From: an uncultured Puniceicoccaceae bacterium
Lineage (GTDB): Bacteria > Verrucomicrobiota > Verrucomicrobiia > Opitutales > Oceanipulchritudinaceae
Assembly: GCA_964345345.1 (NCBI GenBank)
Contig: CAYFRH010000002.1
Span: 5,758-69,757 of the forward strand
DNA: 64,000 nt
Direction: 5' to 3'
Shown: positions 1,534 to 19,523 of the stretch, piece by piece
Numbering within the stretch: the stretch's first letter is position 1
How the letters are laid out: each line of letters opens with the position of its first letter
Program-made: the position numbers and the translations under genes
Notes under the pieces: model-generated
What the model saw: the letters and a program-made list of their open reading frames with translations, nothing else
Told to the model about the DNA's origin: nothing
The model's database searches: none

Positions 1534-2586
1534 ATGGCGAAAAAAACAGGACTGGGAAGGGGACTCGGCTCCCTTATCAGCGGTGGAGTGAACGCCGGAA
1601 CCAGCACGCCGGCCAAGAAGGCGACCAGAAAAAGCTCCGGAAAAAAGGCGAAAAAGGGGACCGGAGAGAAAAAAGCCGCGCCGGCTGCAGGGAAGGCCTC
1701 CGCGCCGGCGAAAACGGCCACCGAGGGAAATGTTCCCGAAGGAACACGGCCTTTTCCCAAGCGCCAGGAGGTTGGAGAAGGAGCCCGCGAAACTGCGGTC
1801 GGACTCTACGAAGTGCCCCTTGCGCGTATCCGTCCCAATCCGCGCCAGCCCAGAAAATCCTTTTCCGAGGACCATCTGAAGGAGCTGGCCGAGAGCATTC
1901 GTTCCGAAGGTCTTCTCCAGCCCGTGGTCGTGCGCCACCAGGACGCCGAGTATGAACTCATCGCCGGGGAGCGCCGGTGGCGGGCCTGCCAGTTACTCAA
2001 GTTGCGCTACATTCCCGCGCGTATTATGCAGGCGAGCGAGTCCTCCAGCGCGGTTCTCTCCCTTATCGAGAATCTTCAACGGGAGGACCTTAATCCCATC
2101 GAAGAAGCGATGGGCCTTGCCAGCCTTCTCAAAGATTTTGATCTTACCCAGGAACAGGTGGCCGAACGGGTGGGGCGTTCCCGGGCCGCCGTCGCAAACG
2201 CCCTGCGGCTTCTTCAGTTGCCCCGTGAGATCCAGGGCTATCTCATCAAGAGCCACCTTTCTGTCGGGCACGCCAAGGTTCTGCTCGGGGTCGAGGATCC
2301 GGAGACCCGCCTCGCCCTTGCGCGCCAGGCCATCGAGCGGGAATGGAGCGTCCGCGAGACGGAGCGCCGCGTTGAACAAAGCGGGAACGCTCCCTCCCGA
2401 AAATCCGCCGCACGAAAACAGAACAGCGATGAGCAGGTGGCTCTGCGCAGTGTCGAAAACCAGCTCTCCACCGGCCTCAGTACCCGCGTGTTCCTGAAGC
2501 ACAGCCCGAAAAAAGGCCGCATTATCATCGAGTACTACGGGAACGACGATCTGCAGCGCATTATGGAAAAAATGGGGATGCAGTAG
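1534..2586 (+). CDS. parB: ParB/Spo0J chromosome partitioning protein
   Basis: N-terminal LGRGLGSLI peptide, IRPNPRQPRKSF, LLQPVVVR, ELIAGERRWRA (GxxRxxA), LIENLQREDLNPIEEA, HTH LTQEQVAERVGRSRAAVANALRLL, C-terminal GRIIIEYY..DDLQRI. Confidence 0.95.
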   Translation: MAKKTGLGRGLGSLISGGVNAGTSTPAKKATRKSSGKKAKKGTGEKKAAPAAGKASAPAKTATEGNVPEGTRPFPKRQEVGEGARETAVGLYEVPLARIRPNPRQPRKSFSEDHLKELAESIRSEGLLQPVVVRHQDAEYELIAGERRWRACQLLKLRYIPARIMQASESSSAVLSLIENLQREDLNPIEEAMGLASLLKDFDLTQEQVAERVGRSRAAVANALRLLQLPREIQGYLIKSHLSVGHAKVLLGVEDPETRLALARQAIEREWSVRETERRVEQSGNAPSRKSAARKQNSDEQVALRSVENQLSTGLSTRVFLKHSPKKGRIIIEYYGNDDLQRIMEKMGMQ

Positions 2587-2665: not shown

Positions 2666-3088
2666 ATGCTCAACATTATCATATCTTTCCTGACCTTCGT
2701 GCTGATCCTCATCAGCCTCTTTATGGTGCTGGTGATCCTCATGCAACGAGGCAGCTCCGGAGGCGGCATGGGGTCGGCCTTCGGTGGCGGTGCCGCCGAG
2801 TCTGCTTTCGGCGCGGAAACGACGAACATTCTGACTCGTGCCACGAAGTGGTCGGCTCTCGGATTCTTCGTCATCGCCCTGTCCCTCTATCTCCTGTACA
2901 TGGAGCGGGAACAAGGTAGCACTGACCAGGGAGAAACCGACCTTCCGGACATTCCCGTGGAAATGAGCGAAGAGGCTGCTCCCGCCGAGGAATTACCCGG
3001 GGAAACCACCCCTCCTGAAGTGGAGGGAGAAGCGGCCGCCGAAGAAGGAAGTCCGGAGACGCGCCCCGATCCCGAGCCGCAGGAATGA
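2666..3088 (+). CDS. secG: Preprotein translocase subunit SecG with acidic C-terminal tail
   Basis: LMVLVILMQRGSSGGGMGSAFGGG..ESAFG...NILTRAT, with two TM segments. Confidence 0.93.
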   Translation: MLNIIISFLTFVLILISLFMVLVILMQRGSSGGGMGSAFGGGAAESAFGAETTNILTRATKWSALGFFVIALSLYLLYMEREQGSTDQGETDLPDIPVEMSEEAAPAEELPGETTPPEVEGEAAAEEGSPETRPDPEPQE

Positions 3089-3924
3089 GGCCGGTTTTTT
3101 CCTCTTTCTCTTTTTGCTTACGTCCGTTCCGCTTTTTGGCGGGCGGGCGTTTTTTCATCCGCCTTTCCTTTTCTTTCCTTATTTGTCTGCTCCTCGCCCA
3201 GCCCGCGTCCGGCCAGTTTAAGTTCCGCGAGGCGCCCAACCGGCAGGATCCGCGTCCCCTTGCCGGAGAAGAGGGCGAAGCCATTTGGAACGCTTTTGAG
3301 GCCAACCGCGCCCTCGGTTCCTTTGTCCTGCAGGGCAGGCTCATACATCGTCCGCCTCGGGACCCCTCCCGCCGTTACGGCCTCCGCCTTGAGGGAACCT
3401 GGACCGAAAAAGCCCGCAGCACTACAATCCGCCTTCGCGCGCCTGATGGAATTGTCACTACGCATCACCTTCGGATGGAAGGCGGGTCCGAAGAAAAAAC
3501 GGTTTTTTTCCGCGACGAGGATACGGAGGCATGGGAAAGGGCAGAATCCGCACGGTTGCAGGAACCCCTTCTCCCGGGCCTTCCCTTCTCCCGGGCCGAT
3601 CTTCTCATGACCTATCTTGAATGGGAAGTTCGTCATTACAAGGGTCCCGATCGATTGCATGGTAGACCCGCTCATGTTTTCGCCCTGCACAATCCGCGCG
3701 AACACATTTCACCAAGCCGTGTCGAGGTATGGCTCGACGAGGATTATGCCGCCATCCTGCGCATCGATATTTTCGCTACGGAAAAGGAGCGGACCGCCCG
3801 GATCCGGGTCGGCGGTTTCCGCGAATACTCCAGCGGGTGGATGTTCAGCAGCCTGATCTGGGAAAACCGGCGGACGCGTGACCGCATCCGTCTCGAGGTA
3901 GAGGATTTTTCCCTACATCCCTGA
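3085..3924 (+). CDS. Outer-membrane lipoprotein-sorting (LolA-like fold) protein
   Basis: Signal-like N-terminus, [11 protein letters not shown] and [20 protein letters not shown] motifs, beta-rich. ATGA overlap with the secG stop. True start may be downstream. Confidence 0.6.
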
Positions 3925-4025
3925 ACCGTTTCTTCCCCCCGCACTGTCGTTGCGCCCCATTTTTTGGGGCTTGTCCGGGGTGCAGCCATTTTTCAATACT
4001 TTTTTGTTGAAATTTGGAAAATATC

Positions 4026-4055
4026 TTGTAGACCGGGATATTGAGTACTTACAAA
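4026..4055 (+). promoter_or_regulatory. Candidate sigma70 promoter for the RHH/H1-like gene
   Basis: TTGTAG at 4026-4031 with TACAAA 18 nt later in an AT-rich intergenic stretch. GGGGAG SD-like sequence precedes ATG 4076. Confidence 0.35.
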
Positions 4056-4075
4056 TTAATACAGGGGAGAAACCT

Positions 4076-4858
4076 ATGCCTAAACAGCCAAAACAAAGCC
4101 ACGTGAAAACGACACCGCTTAGTTTTGAGATCGATGCCGACCTCGCTGACAGCCTTGAAAAGCTGCGCCGTCAGTTGGGAAACGTTTCCATCTCGAAACT
4201 GATCGATCACGCCATCGAGCGGTTTGATTACTCCAAAATCTCCCGCAAAGCCGGTGGGGAAAGGAGGCAGTTGTCGGTCCGACTCTCCGACGACAAACGC
4301 GGTGTCCTCGACAAATTGTCGAGATCCGAAAAAGTCAGCATGGCGTACCTGATTCGCCATGCCCTCGAATCCCTGATGGATTCCGCCCGGACCAGGACGG
4401 TCCAGGCTCAACTCCGGAAGGCTCTTGCCAGCGCGGCTCCGGCTGCGGCGAAAAAGACGGCCACCAAAAAGGGCGCGAAGAAGGCCGCCACCAAGAAAAG
4501 TCCTGCCAAGAAAGCCACCGCCAAAAAGGCCGGTACTAAGAAAGCGGCAGCCAAAAAGGCCGGTTCTAAAAAAGCGGCCGCGAAGAAGGCCGCCACCAAG
4601 AAGAGTCCTGTGAAGAAAACCGCGAAGAAAGCGGTTGCGAAAAAGGCAGGCACCAAAAAAGCGGCCGCCAAGAAGAGCGCCGCCAAGAAGGCGCCTGCCA
4701 AAAAGGCAGCGGTGAAAAAGGCCACGGTGAAAAAAGCTGCGACAAAAAAGGGTCCGGCGAAAAAAGCCGCGCGCAAAACGGCAGTGAAAAAGAAAGTGCC
4801 AAGCAAGAAAGCGGTGGCCGGCAAGCGAGTCGCGAAAAAAGGCCGCTCCGCTAGTTGA
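4076..4858 (+). CDS. Tandem ribbon-helix-helix DNA-binding protein with histone H1-like Lys/Ala-rich tail
   Basis: Two RHH-like units ([37 protein letters not shown]; [36 protein letters not shown]) followed by about 140 aa of KKxxA/T pentapeptide repeats with no acidic residues. Confidence 0.75.
4430..4850 (+). repeat. Degenerate coding repeat (AAGAAG-GCN-GCN units) of the H1-like tail
   Basis: 15-bp periodicity. GCGAAGAAGGCCGCCACCAAGAA(A/G)AGTCCTG occurs at 4475 and 4580 (105-bp offset, one mismatch). Confidence 0.85.
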
Positions 4859-4912
4859 AGCGTTTTCCCCAGCACCGGGGTTCTGATACGCCGGAGCTGA
4901 TTTTCTTTTCCC

Positions 4913-4943
4913 ATCCTCCCTTTTGCCGGGGAGGATTTTTTTT
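4913..4943 (+). terminator. Intrinsic terminator after the RHH/H1-like gene
   Basis: ATCCTCCC-ttttgccg-GGGAGGAT followed by a T run. Confidence 0.75.
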
Positions 4944-5021
4944 CGTCTGCGAAAAGCGCGATGGGAAAAAGCCTTGCAGAGGCCGGGAGGTAGCCGAAAG
5001 GTTGGCAAAACCAAGCAAATT

Positions 5022-6260
5022 ATGGAACAGAACGAACAAACGGGCGCACCTATTGAAGTGAACAGCGATGGAAGTCCGCAGGTGCCGGACCGGCCAATTC
5101 TTCCTTTCATTGAGGGGGATGGAACAGGTCCGGATATCTGGGCGGCAGCCGTCCGGGTTTTCGATGCCGCAGTGGAAAAAGCCTACGGGGGTCGACGGCA
5201 AATTGTCTGGAAGGAAGTTCTCGCCGGAGAAAAAGCCTACAAGGCAACGGGAGACTGGTTGCCTGCGGAGACGTTGGAGGCTTTCCGCACGTATCGGGTC
5301 GGCATCAAAGGACCGTTGACGACGCCGGTGGGCGGAGGAATCCGCTCCCTCAATGTGGCTCTGCGGCAGGAACTTGATCTCTACGTTTGTCTGCGCCCGG
5401 TCCGTTATTTTAAAGGCGTGTCCAGTCCTCTGAAAAAACCGGAGGATACCGACATGGTCATTTTCCGGGAAAACACCGAGGACATATACGCCGGCATTGA
5501 ATTCGCTTCCGGAACCGAGGAAGCGGAACAATTAAAACACTGGCTTGGGCAGAGTTTTCCGGAAAAAATGAAAAAGGTCCGCTTTCCCGATACAGCCGGT
5601 TTCGGATTGAAACCGGTTTCCCAGGAGGGGACGCGTCGTCTTGTTACGGCGGCGATTCACTATGCCCGGGAGCGCAAACGCGAGAGCGTGACGCTCGTGC
5701 ACAAGGGGAATATCATGAAGTACACCGAGGGGGCGTTTCGCGACTGGGGCTATCAGACAGCGCAGGAGGAATTCGGGGCGGAACTCCTCGACGGCGGTCC
5801 GTGGTGCAGGCTTCCGGACGGCCTCATCATCAAGGATGTGATTGCCGACGCGTTCCTGCAGCAAATACTCACCCGGCCATCGGAGTACGACGTCGTGGCA
5901 ACCTTGAATCTGAACGGAGACTACATTTCAGACGCGCTTGCCGCTCAGGTCGGGGGGATTGGCATCGCTCCGGGCGGAAATGTCAGCTACGAGAACGGTG
6001 CGGCGATTTTCGAGGCGACCCACGGTACGGCGCCCAAATACGCCGGGCAGGACAAGGTCAATCCGGGCTCGCTGATCCTTTCCGGAGAAATGATGCTCCG
6101 CTACCTCGGATGGAACGAGGCGGCTGACCTTATCATCCGGGGAGTGGAGGGAGCGATTGCCCATCACAAAGTGACCTACGATTTCGCCCGCATGCTGGAA
6201 GGGGTGGAACCTGTTTCCTGCTCCGGTTTCGGTGAAGCCGTGATCGGGGAAATGGCGTAA
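5022..6260 (+). CDS. icd: NADP-dependent isocitrate dehydrogenase (E. coli type)
   Basis: [74 protein letters not shown]. The K-Y and Y..R residues indicate NADP preference. Start at ATG 5022. Confidence 0.96.
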
Positions 6261-6276: not shown

Positions 6277-7239
6277 ATGGGTCTGGAACCCGGCCATGCG
6301 AAAGCGATTGAGGCCCTCACGAAAGTGAAGGCTCGTCTTGGTGACGTCATCCGGGGCAAGGGCGAAGTTCTCGACCGGGTCCTGATCTGCCTCTTGAGCG
6401 GGGGACACCTCCTGCTTGAGGACCTCCCCGGAATGGGCAAGACAACACTTGCCTATGCGCTTGCCTGCGCCCTGAAGGCCGATTTTCAGCGTATCCAATT
6501 TACGAGTGATCTGCTGCCGGCGGATGTTCTCGGTGTCTCCGTGTACGAAGAGCAAAAGAGCCGCTTTGTCTTCAAGCCGGGTCCGGTATTCGCGAATATT
6601 CTTCTCGCCGATGAAATCAACCGGACAACTCCGAAAACGCAAAGTGCTCTCCTTGAAGTCATGGACCGGGGGCGCGTTTCCATGGATGGAGAAACCCATG
6701 AGGTAGGGAAGCCCTTCATGGTTTTCGCGACCCAGAACCCGGTCGATTTTGAGGGAACCTTTCCGCTTCCGGACAGCCAGATGGATCGCTTTTTCATGCG
6801 AACGCAGATGGGATATCCCGCTTTCGCCGATGAAAAGGAAATCCTCGCGGCGGGCCTGCGGCACTACGACCGCATCGGGGGAGAAGCCGTTGTCAGCCGC
6901 GAGGAAGTCCGTGAATGGCAGGAGCAGGTGGAGCGGCTATACATCGAGGAAAGTGTGCTGGAATACCTGCTCCGCATTGTGCGTTCGACGCGGGAGGAAG
7001 AAAGCTTCCGCAGTGGCATCAGCCCTCGCGGGGCTTTAGCTCTTAAAGTCGCGGCACAGGCGCGGGCCTTTTACCTTGGACGGTCCTTCGTGCTTCCGGA
7101 GGATGTTGAGACCCTTTTTGTGCCGGTTTGCGCGCATCGTCTGGTCAGCCGCTTCCACGGTTCCGATCCGCTTGAGGAACGGGAGAGGGTGGAAGGCCTG
7201 CTGGCGGCGATTCTGGAGAAAGTGCCGGCGCCCCTGTGA
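6277..7239 (+). CDS. moxR: MoxR-family AAA+ ATPase
   Basis: [54 protein letters not shown]...EGTFPLP..QMDRF, GISPRG. Confidence 0.9.
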
Positions 7240-18536: not shown

Positions 18537-19523
18537 TCAGTTTCCGGGGAAAGTGTCCACCCGCTCTCGCAGGTCGTCCTCGTAGGCGATGCCGTCTCTG
18601 TAGAGATCCCGCAAATACGAGGCCAATTTTTCGTTGGTGGGACCGTAGGCCTTGTCGTAGAGGGCGTGCTCGAGCGCGCTCAGAAGCGAATCGGCATCCT
18701 GAAAGCGCTTTTCCCTCGCACGCTCGAGGCATCGGCGGACCGCCGTAACCACCCCCGGGTCCAGCTCCGCTCGGGCGGCTGCGAGGTCCGGAAGGGCGAG
18801 GTGACGGATGTTCTCCCTCGATTGCTCCGCTGAGGACGCCGCAAAGGGATTGTGCCCGAGGAGCAACTCCTGCAGCACCACCCCGCAGGAGAAGAGATCC
18901 GCGCGCGCATCCGTAACTTCCATCCGGGCCTGTTCAGGGGAGAGGTAGTCGCTGCGACCAGCCACCACTTCACCTTCCTCGCTGTACATAAGATCGAAGG
19001 CCTTTGCGATGCCGAAGTCGGTCAATTTTACATCACCGGCATGGGAAAGGAGAATATTCCGGGGGCTGACGTCGCGATGGACAAGATGCCGGAAGCGGCC
19101 CTCCCGGTCCCGTTGCGTATGCGCAAAGGCCAGTGCCCGAGCGACCCGGGAAACAATAAAGACCGCCCACTCCGGTGGTACCGACCGCCCCAGCGCGCGA
19201 TGCTGGAGCAGAAACTCCTCGAGATTCCCTCCTTCCACCAGTTCCATCACAATGAAGTATTGCTCATGGCTTTGCCCGAGGTGGTAAATCTGGGCAATAT
19301 TCGTATGGATGAGGTCCGCGACGAGGCGGGCTTCGCCAAGAAAATTATTCCGGAATTCCGGAATACGGGAGTATTCCCGGCGAATTACCTTGATCGCGAC
19401 CCGTTTCCGGAAGTTTTCCTGACCCGTCTGTAAAGCCTCGTAAACACAGCCCATGCCACCCCGGGCAATGGGGCGGACCATTTCGTAACGAACGTGATCG
19501 TCGATGACGGGTGGCCTCTCCAC
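18537..19523 (-). CDS. Hanks-type Ser/Thr protein kinase (kinase domain only)
   Basis: IARGGMGCVY, VAIK, EARLVA.L.HTNI, VMELVEG, HRDVSPRNILL, DFGIAK, YLSPEQ, DLFSCG. No TM or sensor domain. Confidence 0.92.
   Translation of the reverse strand: MERPPVIDDHVRYEMVRPIARGGMGCVYEALQTGQENFRKRVAIKVIRREYSRIPEFRNNFLGEARLVADLIHTNIAQIYHLGQSHEQYFIVMELVEGGNLEEFLLQHRALGRSVPPEWAVFIVSRVARALAFAHTQRDREGRFRHLVHRDVSPRNILLSHAGDVKLTDFGIAKAFDLMYSEEGEVVAGRSDYLSPEQARMEVTDARADLFSCGVVLQELLLGHNPFAASSAEQSRENIRHLALPDLAAARAELDPGVVTAVRRCLERAREKRFQDADSLLSALEHALYDKAYGPTNEKLASYLRDLYRDGIAYEDDLRERVDTFPGN

What the first reader, a model, noticed from the sequence alone, without database searches (positions are those of the whole stretch)
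4076..4858. Single-chain tandem RHH protein fused to a histone-H1-like tail: candidate new nucleoid-associated protein
Seen: two consecutive RHH-like units (beta-strand LSFEI / LSVRL followed by two helices), then about 140 aa of [20 protein letters not shown] repeats with no Asp or Glu. The tail has two SPxK motifs (KKSPAKK, KKSPVKK) and a 105-bp internal duplication. The gene has its own AT-rich promoter region and terminator. Known: RHH domains normally dimerise to read DNA through a beta-ribbon; H1-like tails occur in chlamydial Hc1/Hc2, Pseudomonas AlgP and mycobacterial HupB, and (S/T)PxK is the H1 phosphorylation motif. Inference: a sequence-specific, intramolecularly dimerised head that targets a DNA-compacting tail. 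I do not recognise this architecture. It may bear on the condensed nucleoids reported in PVC bacteria, and the soluble Hanks kinase at 18537 is a speculative regulator.
Basis: partly seen in the sequence, partly recalled or inferred. Interest (0 to 1): 0.75.

Follow-up and report, generated by a model that had tools for sequence, protein, structure and literature searches.

The report
Double RHH protein with polylysine tail
A small stand-alone gene of an Opitutia (Verrucomicrobiota) bacterium encodes a DNA-binding protein with two ribbon-helix-helix units in one chain and a 135-residue lysine/alanine tail; this conserved family has never been studied, it may organise DNA, and its proposed role as a bulk chromatin protein is untested.

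Summary
Window 4076-4858 (+) encodes a 260-aa protein. It has two homologous ribbon-helix-helix (RHH) units (about residues 12-55 and 63-104), one extra helix, and a 135-aa tail of xxxKK pentapeptides (53 K, 41 A, no D/E, net +56). The tail contains a 105-bp internal duplication. The gene has an AT-rich upstream region (32% GC) and a hairpin-U8 terminator.

The architecture is conserved. The head defines a family of at least 234 clusters at 50% identity, and every named member is from class Opitutia. The gene sits at a fixed chromosomal position (parB-secG-TP_0789-like-[gene]-icd). Members are annotated only as "CopG family regulator" or "hypothetical".

About half of the members carry a basic tail of 40 to about 220 aa, and tail length changes quickly between close relatives. 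Orthologs at the same locus have no tail (102 aa), and some family members carry an acidic extension ending in DPWQI. The head is therefore the core of the protein and the tail is an accessory.

One AlphaFold model resembles F-plasmid TraY, a single-chain RHH pseudo-dimer. A second model built from a deeper alignment left the strands unpaired, so intramolecular pairing is likely but not secure. The S/TPxK motifs are not conserved and not enriched, so the kinase idea has no support.

Verdict: a new combination of known modules. A role as a nucleoid protein is plausible but unproven.

The parts
3985..4075 (+). AT-rich upstream (promoter) region, 32% GC, in a 151-bp intergenic spacer.
   Evidence: Composition. 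Blocks conserved across 11 orthologous loci. No strict sigma-70 consensus match, so the exact promoter is unassigned.
3993..4012 (+). Conserved block TCAATAC-T6-GTTGAAA. The CAATAC lies at -82, followed by a T-run and a TTGAAA -35-like hexamer.
   Evidence: Nearly invariant columns in alignment A3. Position fixed at -81 to -84 in 10 of 11 close orthologs. A role as operator, UP element or -35 is inference.
4026..4031 (+). Conserved TTGTAG (TTGTAA in most orthologs).
   Evidence: Alignment A3. Promoter-hexamer candidate, by inference.
4043..4063 (+). Conserved GAGTAYT ... YAATACA block directly 5' of the Shine-Dalgarno. It holds GTAYT at -31 and AATAC at -18, and is a candidate autoregulatory operator or 5'-UTR element.
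   Evidence: fixed positions in all close orthologs. Not significantly enriched in distant orthologs (p about 0.06). No second copy elsewhere in the window. Function is inferred.
4064..4069 (+). Shine-Dalgarno GGGGAG, 6 nt before the ATG.
   Evidence: Sequence. Conserved as GGGAG in orthologs.
4076..4858 (+). CDS, 260 aa plus stop.
   Evidence: Head is 88% identical in nucleotides and 94% in amino acids to L006.
4109..4240 (+). RHH unit 1 (residues 12-55): strand TPLSFEID, helix 21-33, helix 39-49.
   Evidence: Pfam RHH_1/RHH_3 at 13-49. AlphaFold secondary structure. P14 and F17 invariant.
4262..4387 (+). RHH unit 2 (residues 63-104): strand RRQLSVRL, helix 72-85, helix 89-104. Q65, S67, R69, S88 and R94 are invariant family-wide.
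   Evidence: Second RHH_1 stretch and DUF6290 hit at 66-98. CopG-family PDB profile hits at 62-108. hhalign against unit 1. Invariant columns.
4394..4432 (+). Extra C-terminal helix (residues 107-119) joining head to tail.
   Evidence: AlphaFold models. Conserved in close homologs only.
4451..4855 (+). Polycationic tail (residues 126-260): about 25 xxxKK pentapeptides, 53 K, 3 R, 41 A, no D/E.
   Evidence: Sub-threshold compositional hits to HC2 (39.4 vs 40 bits) and to the Burkholderia H1-like model (48.8 vs 80 bits).
4466..4661 (+). 105-bp (35-aa) internal tandem duplication inside the tail. It carries both SPxK motifs.
   Evidence: TRF period 105, 1.9 copies, 79% match. 18 of 35 residues identical between copies.
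4913..4944 (+). Intrinsic terminator: 9-bp stem, 6-nt loop, U8.
   Evidence: MFE -31.9 kcal/mol for the 91-nt stretch 4860-4950 that contains it, z -2.8.

Best explanation
The gene encodes a chromosomal DNA-binding protein specific to Opitutia and built from two modules.

(1) The head holds two diverged RHH units in one chain. Most likely they pack against each other, as in F-plasmid TraY, to form one asymmetric beta-ribbon. The unit-2 strand presents the invariant Q65, S67 and R69 to the major groove. The unit-1 strand presents S/T16 and E/D18. The head would therefore read a short, non-palindromic site as a monomer.

(2) The tail is a fast-evolving polycationic stretch of xxxKK repeats. It binds the DNA backbone electrostatically and without sequence preference. 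This raises affinity and residence time and neutralises or bridges neighbouring DNA.

The head anchors the protein at specific sites. Candidate sites are the conserved RATAC-containing blocks in its own promoter, which would give autoregulation. The tail then coats or condenses flanking DNA. In short, it is an architectural regulator with a targeted, H1-like tail.

Shown: the two RHH units, their homology to each other, the tail's composition, family conservation, fixed synteny, monocistronic signals, and conserved upstream blocks.

Inferred: DNA binding itself, intramolecular pairing, the operator, and any compaction.
For: - RHH identity: Pfam RHH_1 above its cut-off in two stretches.
- Internal homology of the two units.
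- Model 1 (pLDDT 76, pTM 0.63) gives strand-helix-helix twice with paired strands. Its best PDB matches are the three TraY chains of the F relaxosome (probability 1.0, TM 0.57-0.69, rmsd about 2.5 A over 93-98 columns). DndE, single-chain Arc, AvtR and VirC2 follow. The TraY assignment and its single-chain RHH fold are confirmed in PMC12117103.
- Each unit of model 2 superposes on CopG, StnY, AmrZ and Arc (TM up to 0.81).
- The alternating residues Q65, S67 and R69, plus S88 at the N-terminus of helix B, are invariant in 104 sequences. These are the positions that contact bases and phosphate in RHH proteins (Schreiter and Drennan 2007, established knowledge).
- The two units always occur together, in the same order, each with its own sequence signature, across at least 234 clusters.
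- Tail: +56 net charge and no acidic residue. It is present in 126 of 251 family sequences. One relative has KKGRP AT-hook-like repeats in the same place.
- Core-genome behaviour: the same synteny across two orders, one copy per locus, and no plasmid or phage relatives.
- The head is under strong constraint: 94% aa identity to L006 while the neighbouring gene is about 67% identical in nucleotides.
- Conserved upstream blocks at fixed positions.
- Precedent for an RHH nucleoid protein: CdbA.
Against: - No experiment exists for any family member.
- The AlphaFold model from the deeper alignment (pLDDT 82, pTM 0.46) left the strands unpaired. The units might therefore pair between chains.
- The unit-1 strand carries acidic residues, which is unusual for a strand that reads DNA.
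- Tail-less orthologs (102 aa) and, elsewhere in the family, acidic-tailed variants show the tail is dispensable for the conserved function.
- The candidate operator is conserved only in the close clade, where shared ancestry could explain it. RATAC is not significantly enriched upstream of distant orthologs.
- No strict sigma-70 promoter match.
- Abundance is unknown.
Confidence: 0.5

Rival explanations
1. Bulk nucleoid-associated protein. The protein is highly abundant, coats the chromosome with little specificity and compacts it through the tail, like chlamydial Hc1/Hc2 or mycobacterial HupB. It would contribute to the condensed nucleoids reported in PVC bacteria.
For: - Tail composition is like Hc2 and H1.
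- Good Shine-Dalgarno, AT-rich upstream region with a T-run, and its own terminator.
- Core-genome synteny.
- Precedent for an RHH protein acting as an essential nucleoid protein: CdbA.
- Condensed PVC nucleoids are still unexplained (PMC3177640).
Against: - Orthologs at the same locus lack the tail entirely. About a third of the family sequences have a short tail or none, though some of these are fragments.
- The invariant base-reading residues point to a specific target.
- There are no abundance data.
- Scores against the Hc2 and H1-like models are below their cut-offs and reflect composition.
Confidence: 0.25
2. Ordinary low-copy transcription factor, for example an autorepressor or the regulator of a small regulon. 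The tail only tunes non-specific DNA affinity or 1-D search and has no architectural role.
For: - RHH proteins are mostly repressors.
- The closest phage profile families are repressors.
- Source annotations read 'CopG family transcriptional regulator'.
- Conserved blocks lie in its own promoter.
- The tail is dispensable in orthologs.
Against: - A +56 tail of 135 aa, up to about 220 aa in relatives, is far more than affinity tuning normally needs.
- The tail is kept in half of the family despite rapid turnover of its sequence.
- No partner gene is conserved as a co-regulated neighbour. The downstream gene differs between clades, icd or an aminotransferase.
Confidence: 0.2
3. The tail targets a polyanion other than DNA, such as polyphosphate granules (as for AlgP), RNA or ribosomes. 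The protein would then link that structure to a DNA site or act away from DNA.
For: - The H1-like protein AlgP localises to polyP granules (PMC9239181).
- MDP1 condenses RNA (listing).
- K/A tails are chemically unselective among polyanions.
Against: - The head has all the hallmarks of DNA-binding RHH proteins.
- No polyP or PHA genes are adjacent.
Confidence: 0.05

Closest known systems
F-plasmid TraY (single-chain double RHH; PDB 9f0x-9f12 chains E/F/G)
   Same: Two RHH units in one polypeptide of about 110 aa. It is the best structural match to model 1 (probability 1.0, TM 0.57-0.69). It binds asymmetric sites as a monomer and bends DNA (PMC12117103).
   Different: No detectable sequence similarity. 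TraY is a plasmid relaxosome accessory protein next to tra genes. This gene is chromosomal, has no conjugation context, and carries a 135-aa polycationic tail that TraY lacks.
CdbA of Myxococcus xanthus (RHH nucleoid-associated protein)
   Same: An RHH fold used for global chromosome binding with moderate specificity. CdbA is abundant and essential (PMC7156744). It shows that an RHH protein can act as a nucleoid protein.
   Different: CdbA is a 67-aa single-unit RHH that forms tetramers and is regulated by c-di-GMP. It has no tandem units and no lysine-rich tail. The only similarity is weak and at the fold level (6sbx, E about 8).
Chlamydial Hc1/Hc2, Burkholderia/Bordetella H1-like proteins, Pseudomonas AlgP
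   Same: Long lysine/alanine-rich, acid-free repeat regions. Sub-threshold profile hits: HC2 39.4 bits, hist_H1_lk_Burk 48.8 bits.
   Different: Scores fall below every curated cut-off and reflect composition. Those proteins have no RHH head. AlgP associates with polyP granules (PMC9239181).
Folded domain plus K/A-tail fusions: mycobacterial HupB/MDP1, Streptomyces HupS and DdbA, M. smegmatis Ku (PAKKA repeats), actinobacterial TopA
   Same: The same modular logic: a specific or structured nucleic-acid-binding domain with a low-complexity lysine-repeat tail that raises DNA affinity or processivity (PMC3553676, PMC3643593, PMC7398561, PMC11229371).
   Different: The head folds differ (HU, Ku, topoisomerase, DksA-like). 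Those examples are actinobacterial. None pairs the tail with an RHH domain.
Eukaryotic linker histone H1
   Same: The C-terminal domain has a similar K/A/P-rich, acid-free composition. This one protein has two S-P-x-K motifs.
   Different: There is no winged-helix globular domain. The S/TPxK motifs are neither conserved nor enriched in the family. There is no evidence of common descent.

Membership tests
RHH superfamily (Arc/MetJ/CopG; Pfam PF01402 RHH_1) | Profile match above the curated cut-off. | tested here: met
   36.6 bits against 20.5, E 4e-9, two stretches. RHH_3 scores 22.6 against 21.6.
RHH superfamily (Arc/MetJ/CopG; Pfam PF01402 RHH_1) | Strand-helix-helix topology, with polar or basic residues alternating on the strand and an S/T at the N-terminus of helix B. 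| tested here: met
   AlphaFold elements E12-20/H21-33/H39-49 and E63-71/H72-85/H89-104. Single units superpose on CopG at 1.1-1.5 A. Q65, S67, R69 and S88 are invariant and S40 nearly so.
RHH superfamily (Arc/MetJ/CopG; Pfam PF01402 RHH_1) | Two strands pair into an antiparallel ribbon that enters the major groove. | tested here: inconclusive
   Paired in model 1. Unpaired in model 2. DNA binding itself cannot be tested here.
Single-chain double RHH proteins (F TraY, VirC2, AvtR type) | Two homologous RHH units in one polypeptide. | tested here: met
   hhalign of the two halves: 92% probability, E 6e-7. The profile hit spans both units in at least 134 clusters at E<=1e-10.
Single-chain double RHH proteins (F TraY, VirC2, AvtR type) | The two units form an intramolecular pseudo-dimer. 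| tested here: inconclusive
   Model 1 matches the TraY chains (TM 0.57-0.69). Model 2 is open (pTM 0.46).
TraY relaxosome accessory proteins | Encoded next to relaxase/tra genes on a conjugative element, with sequence similarity to TraY. | tested here: not met
   Neighbours are parB, secG, a TP_0789-like gene, icd and moxR. No plasmid hit. No sequence hit to TraY in the PDB.
Hc2 (PF07382; NF038052) and Burkholderia H1-like protein (NF038053) | Profile score at or above the curated cut-off. | tested here: not met
   39.4 against 40; 23.6 against 135; 48.8 against 80.
Eukaryotic linker histone H1 | Winged-helix globular domain (linker_histone). | tested here: not met
   No such Pfam hit. The folded part is RHH.
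Eukaryotic linker histone H1 | Conserved S/TPxK phosphorylation motifs in the tail. | tested here: not met
   Two in this protein, both from one duplication. 25 observed against 28 expected in 126 tails. Absent in the 94%-identical ortholog.
Type II antitoxins with an RHH domain (CopG/RelB/ParD-like) | Adjacent, co-transcribed toxin gene. | tested here: not met
   The gene is monocistronic with its own terminator. Neighbours are housekeeping genes. No PADLOC hit.
Type Ib centromere-binding RHH proteins (ParG, omega) | Encoded directly downstream of a small Walker ParA. | tested here: not met
   No parA adjacent. parB lies two genes upstream, separated by secG and a TP_0789-like gene.
Nucleoid-associated proteins (functional class) | High cellular abundance and genome-wide binding that alters DNA compaction. 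| not testable with these tools
   No expression, proteomic or ChIP data are available for any member.
CdbA family | Single-unit RHH of about 67 aa, tetramer, binds c-di-GMP. | tested here: not met
   The architecture differs (tandem units, 260 aa). Only a weak fold-level hit to 6sbx. c-di-GMP binding cannot be tested.

The most novel reading that the evidence does not exclude
The family is the Opitutia counterpart of a linker histone. It would be an abundant chromatin protein anchored at specific sites, and its rapidly expanding and contracting polylysine tail would set the degree of nucleoid condensation in each lineage. Tail-less and acidic DPWQI-tailed variants would represent alternative chromatin states or partner-recruiting forms. 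This would give a molecular handle on the condensed nucleoids described for PVC bacteria.
Probability: 0.2. Interest if true: 0.75.

Novelty: new variant of a known kind. Interest (0 to 1): 0.5.

Why it matters
If the protein binds DNA as proposed, it shows a new way to build a bacterial chromatin protein: a monomeric, asymmetric double-RHH reader joined to an H1-like polycation.

The family offers natural variants for separating specific from non-specific DNA binding. Orthologs in the same genomic slot have no tail or tails of 40 to about 220 aa, and some family members carry an acidic tip instead.

It is also a concrete candidate for testing what condenses the nucleoid in one PVC class.

The family is confined to a poorly studied class, so the reach of any result is limited unless a global role is shown.

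Tried and rejected
- **Antitoxin:** rejected. There is no adjacent toxin, the gene is monocistronic, and PADLOC gives no hit.
- **Plasmid or phage origin, or TraY orthology:** rejected. tblastn of the head finds nothing in 72,556 plasmids or 50,697 phages. Only weak PHROG repressor hits appear.
- **ParG-like partition protein:** rejected. No parA is adjacent.
- **Phosphoregulation through SPxK and the Hanks kinase:** the motif is neither conserved nor enriched. The kinase is real but unlinked.
- **Tail as a non-coding repeat or mis-called ORF:** rejected. All orthologs keep an open K/A frame, and indels are in frame with 15-, 30- and 105-bp periods. The long antisense ORFs over the tail are artefacts of the stop-free repeat.
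- **K/A tails as a proteome-wide habit:** no other ORF in the 64-kb window passes the same 40-residue K/A-rich, acid-poor screen. The ParB N-terminal linker is lysine-rich but falls below that screen.
- **RNA element in the 5' region:** no Rfam match near threshold.
- **Operator elsewhere in the window:** no second copy of the GAGTAYT-N10-AATACA block. CAATAC-type octamers occur 4 times against 1.4 expected, which is not decisive. The TCAATAC-T-run block is not enriched either.
- **RATAC enrichment upstream of distant orthologs:** not significant (p about 0.06).
- **Genome scan with the diverse alignment A2:** failed for lack of a conserved 7-10-residue stretch. The scan was repeated with A1.
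- **Cluster look-up for the taxonomy of distant members:** gave no organism names.
- **Deeper-alignment AlphaFold run to firm up the pseudo-dimer:** it gave an open model instead.
Full report
**What is there**

Window 4076-4858 (+) is a 783-nt ORF of 260 codons plus stop. It starts at an ATG six bases after a GGGGAG Shine-Dalgarno. The longer TTG-initiated ORF from 3950 is not the gene. The closest ortholog, L006, starts with the same [11 protein letters not shown] after the same ribosome-binding site.

The 151-bp spacer upstream is 44% GC, and its last 90 bp are 32% GC, against 60% for the window. A 9-bp GC-rich hairpin followed by eight U lies 55 nt after the stop (4913-4944). The gene is therefore a unit of its own.

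The long antisense ORFs across it (4049-5110 and 4408-4914, minus strand) are by-products of a repeat that contains no stop codons in several frames.

**Head**

Pfam RHH_1 matches above its curated cut-off (36.6 vs 20.5 bits, E 4e-9) in two stretches. RHH_3 also passes. A family profile finds CopG-family chains in the PDB for the second unit, but only weakly (E 0.05-0.2).

Profile-profile comparison of residues 10-56 with 61-107 across 37 family members gives 92% probability and E 6e-7. The alignment is in register, with PLSFEID on QLSVRLS and both helices aligned. The head is therefore an internal duplication of one RHH unit.

AlphaFold2 on an 11-sequence alignment gave E12-20, H21-33, H39-49, E63-71, H72-85, H89-104 and H107-119 (pLDDT 76, pTM 0.63). 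The best PDB matches of this model are chains E, F and G of the F-plasmid relaxosome (probability 1.0, TM 0.57-0.69, rmsd about 2.5 A over 93-98 columns). DndE, permuted single-chain Arc, AvtR and VirC2 follow. The relaxosome paper confirms that these chains are three TraY molecules. [quoted passage not shown]

A second run with 104 sequences raised local confidence (pLDDT 82, helices above 90). It lowered pTM to 0.46 and left the strands unpaired. That open model matches single RHH monomers: CopG, StnY, AmrZ, Arc, PutA, NikR and CdbA, with target-normalised TM up to 0.81.

So each unit is an RHH with high confidence. The intramolecular pseudo-dimer is the more likely arrangement but is not secure. 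One indirect argument favours heterotypic pairing: across the whole family the two units always occur together, in the same order, each with its own signature.

**Residues**

In 104 sequences the invariant positions are P14, F17, Q65, S67, R69, S88, R94 and A96.

- Q65, S67 and R69 alternate on strand 2.
- S88 sits at the N-terminus of the second helix of unit 2.
- In characterised RHH proteins these are the base-reading and phosphate-anchoring positions (established knowledge, Schreiter and Drennan 2007).
- Strand 1 presents S/T16 and E/D/N18, so the ribbon would be asymmetric.
- Invariance of the reading residues across a whole class suggests a conserved, specific DNA subsite.

**Tail**

Residues 126-260 hold 53 K, 3 R, 41 A, 11 T, 8 V, 7 S, 7 G, 5 P and no D or E. 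The last acidic residue is 102. Net charge is +56 and pI is 12. The sequence is about 25 xxxKK pentapeptides with a clear period of 5.

Tandem Repeats Finder reports 15-, 30- and 105-bp periods. The 105-bp unit (4466-4661, 1.9 copies, 79% match) carries both SPxK motifs.

Hits to HC2 (39.4 vs 40 bits), Hc2 NCBIfam (23.6 vs 135 bits) and the Burkholderia H1-like model (48.8 vs 80 bits) are all below cut-off and reflect composition.

**Family and distribution**

A word-indexed search with the head found only 14 relatives. An exhaustive HMM search of 1.84 billion representatives found 234 clusters at E<=1e-3 and 134 at E<=1e-10. Nearly all of these match across both units.

Every organism name attached to a member belongs to class Opitutia:
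- Puniceicoccaceae and Puniceicoccales
- Oceanipulchritudo
- Opitutales and Opitutaceae
- Synoicihabitans (Actomonas) lomoniglobus
- strain K14

The window itself is closest (94% in the head) to a Great Salt Lake Verrucomicrobia MAG (L006). Source annotations are "CopG family transcriptional regulator", "Arc/MetJ-type regulator" or "hypothetical protein". Four literature searches found no description of this architecture.

**Tail variation in the family**

Of 251 family sequences:
- 126 have a basic, acid-poor tail of at least 40 aa (median 94)
- 91 have a short tail or none, though some of these are fragments
- 34 have something else

Among close relatives whose heads are 70-73% identical to this one, tails run from about 40 to about 220 aa.

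Between the window and L006 the head is 88% identical in nucleotides. The tail is 62% identical with many in-frame indels. L006 has amplified a different unit, KKRPAKKAAT. The tail is thus kept for its composition while its sequence turns over through repeat expansion and contraction.

Other variants seen:
- A subset replaces the tail with an acidic extension ending in DPWQI or DPWKI.
- One member has KKGRP AT-hook-like repeats.
- One member has three double-RHH modules.

**Genomic context**

The order der-fmt-LysM-parB-secG-TP_0789-like-[this gene]-(aminotransferase)-icd-moxR is kept across Puniceicoccales- and Opitutales-type loci. This includes loci whose ortholog is a tail-less 102-aa protein. 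In the Opitutaceae isolate the gene has moved but still precedes the aminotransferase.

There is one copy per locus and no paralog in the window. The head has no relatives on plasmids or phages, there is no defence-system hit, and there is no adjacent toxin or parA. This is core-genome behaviour, not that of a mobile element.

**Upstream conservation**

Among 11 close orthologs the intergenic DNA is unalignable except for four blocks at fixed distances from the ATG:
- TCAATAC-T(6-8)-GTTG[A/T]A at -83
- TTGTAA at about -52
- GAGTAYTC at -30
- CCAATACA at -18, abutting the Shine-Dalgarno

The pentamer RATAC or its complement recurs at -82, (-67), -30 and -17. I read these blocks as the promoter plus a candidate autoregulatory operator.

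This reading is inference, for four reasons:
- The strict sigma-70 scan finds nothing.
- The blocks are not repeated elsewhere in the window.
- RATAC is not significantly enriched upstream of distant orthologs (p about 0.06).
- Conservation within the close clade could reflect shared ancestry alone.

**The phosphorylation idea**

S/TPxK occurs 25 times in 11,204 tail residues against 28 expected from composition. 103 of 126 tails have none. The nearest ortholog has RPAKK where this protein has SPAKK and SPVKK. ORF 18540-19523 (-) is a genuine Pkinase, but nothing links it to this gene.

**Interpretation**

The best-supported reading is an architectural, regulatory DNA-binding protein. An asymmetric double-RHH head gives site recognition. 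An optional polycationic tail adds strong non-specific DNA affinity and possibly bridging or condensation.

The tail-less orthologs and the invariant reading residues make me rank "site-anchored architectural regulator" (0.5) above "bulk nucleoid protein" (0.25) and "plain transcription factor" (0.2). A non-DNA polyanion target such as polyP, as shown for AlgP (PMC9239181), remains possible (0.05).

CdbA shows that an RHH protein can be an abundant, essential nucleoid protein (PMC7156744). HupB, HupS, Ku, TopA and DdbA show that K/A tails are a reusable module.

The finding is therefore a new combination of known parts in an uncharacterised, class-restricted family. It is not a new principle. 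Its link to the condensed nucleoids of PVC bacteria (PMC3177640) is an open hypothesis that can be tested.

Noticed in passing
Family proteins P0034, P0057, P0074, P0085, P0107, P0111, P0116: Some family members lack the K/A tail and instead carry an acidic C-terminal extension ending in a conserved DPWQI / DPWKI / NPWQI tip. This looks like a partner-docking peptide.
   Followed up: no
Family protein P0028 (377 aa): Three consecutive double-RHH modules in one polypeptide (three matched stretches). This is consistent with each two-unit module folding independently.
   Followed up: no
Family protein P0126 (261 aa): The tail is built of PGKKGRPKK / KKGRPA repeats that resemble AT-hooks (GRP core) rather than plain xxxKK repeats.
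   Followed up: no
L001 6001-6743: The ortholog P0001 (153 aa) stops early, and its K/A tail continues in another frame as the overlapping 94-aa ORF at 6459-6743. This is a frameshift or an assembly error inside the repeat.
   Followed up: partly
L016/L017 versus P0008: Near-identical heads carry tails of about 200 aa in MAG contigs but about 85 aa in a metagenome assembly. Either the repeat length varies in the population or assemblies collapse the repeat.
   Followed up: no
window 2666-3088 (+): SecG carries a roughly 60-aa acidic, proline/glutamate-rich C-terminal extension after the Pfam SecG domain. Related loci have SecG of 118-194 aa.
   Followed up: no
window 1534-2586 (+); L008-L015 about 3400-3530: ParB has a lysine-rich linker (residues about 25-60) after the N-terminal GLGRGLGSLI motif, and it is longer in Oceanipulchritudo-like loci. 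No parA lies next to parB in these loci.
   Followed up: partly
window 4049-5110 (-) and 4408-4914 (-): ORFs of 353 and 168 aa antisense to the gene, rich in F/L/G/R. They are artefacts of the stop-free GCN/AAR repeat and could be mis-called as genes.
   Followed up: yes
L007-L014, about -155 to -178 upstream of the ortholog start: A further conserved motif, (T)GTAGTGATT(n)TTCAT, in the intergenic region of Oceanipulchritudo-like loci. It is absent from the window and from L006.
   Followed up: partly
window 18540-19523 (-): A 328-aa Hanks-type Ser/Thr kinase (Pkinase E 1e-39), made up almost entirely of the kinase domain. No link to the finding was found.
   Followed up: partly
window 3085-3924 (+): The upstream neighbour has no Pfam hit here, although its orthologs match TP_0789-like (PF17131, a LolA-like fold). 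It diverges much faster than the RHH head: about 67% against 88% nucleotide identity to L006.
   Followed up: partly
L019 6001-6117 (Chloroflexota MAG): The only hit outside Opitutia is a single-unit CopG-like protein that matches unit 2 alone. It is not a member of the tandem family.
   Followed up: partly
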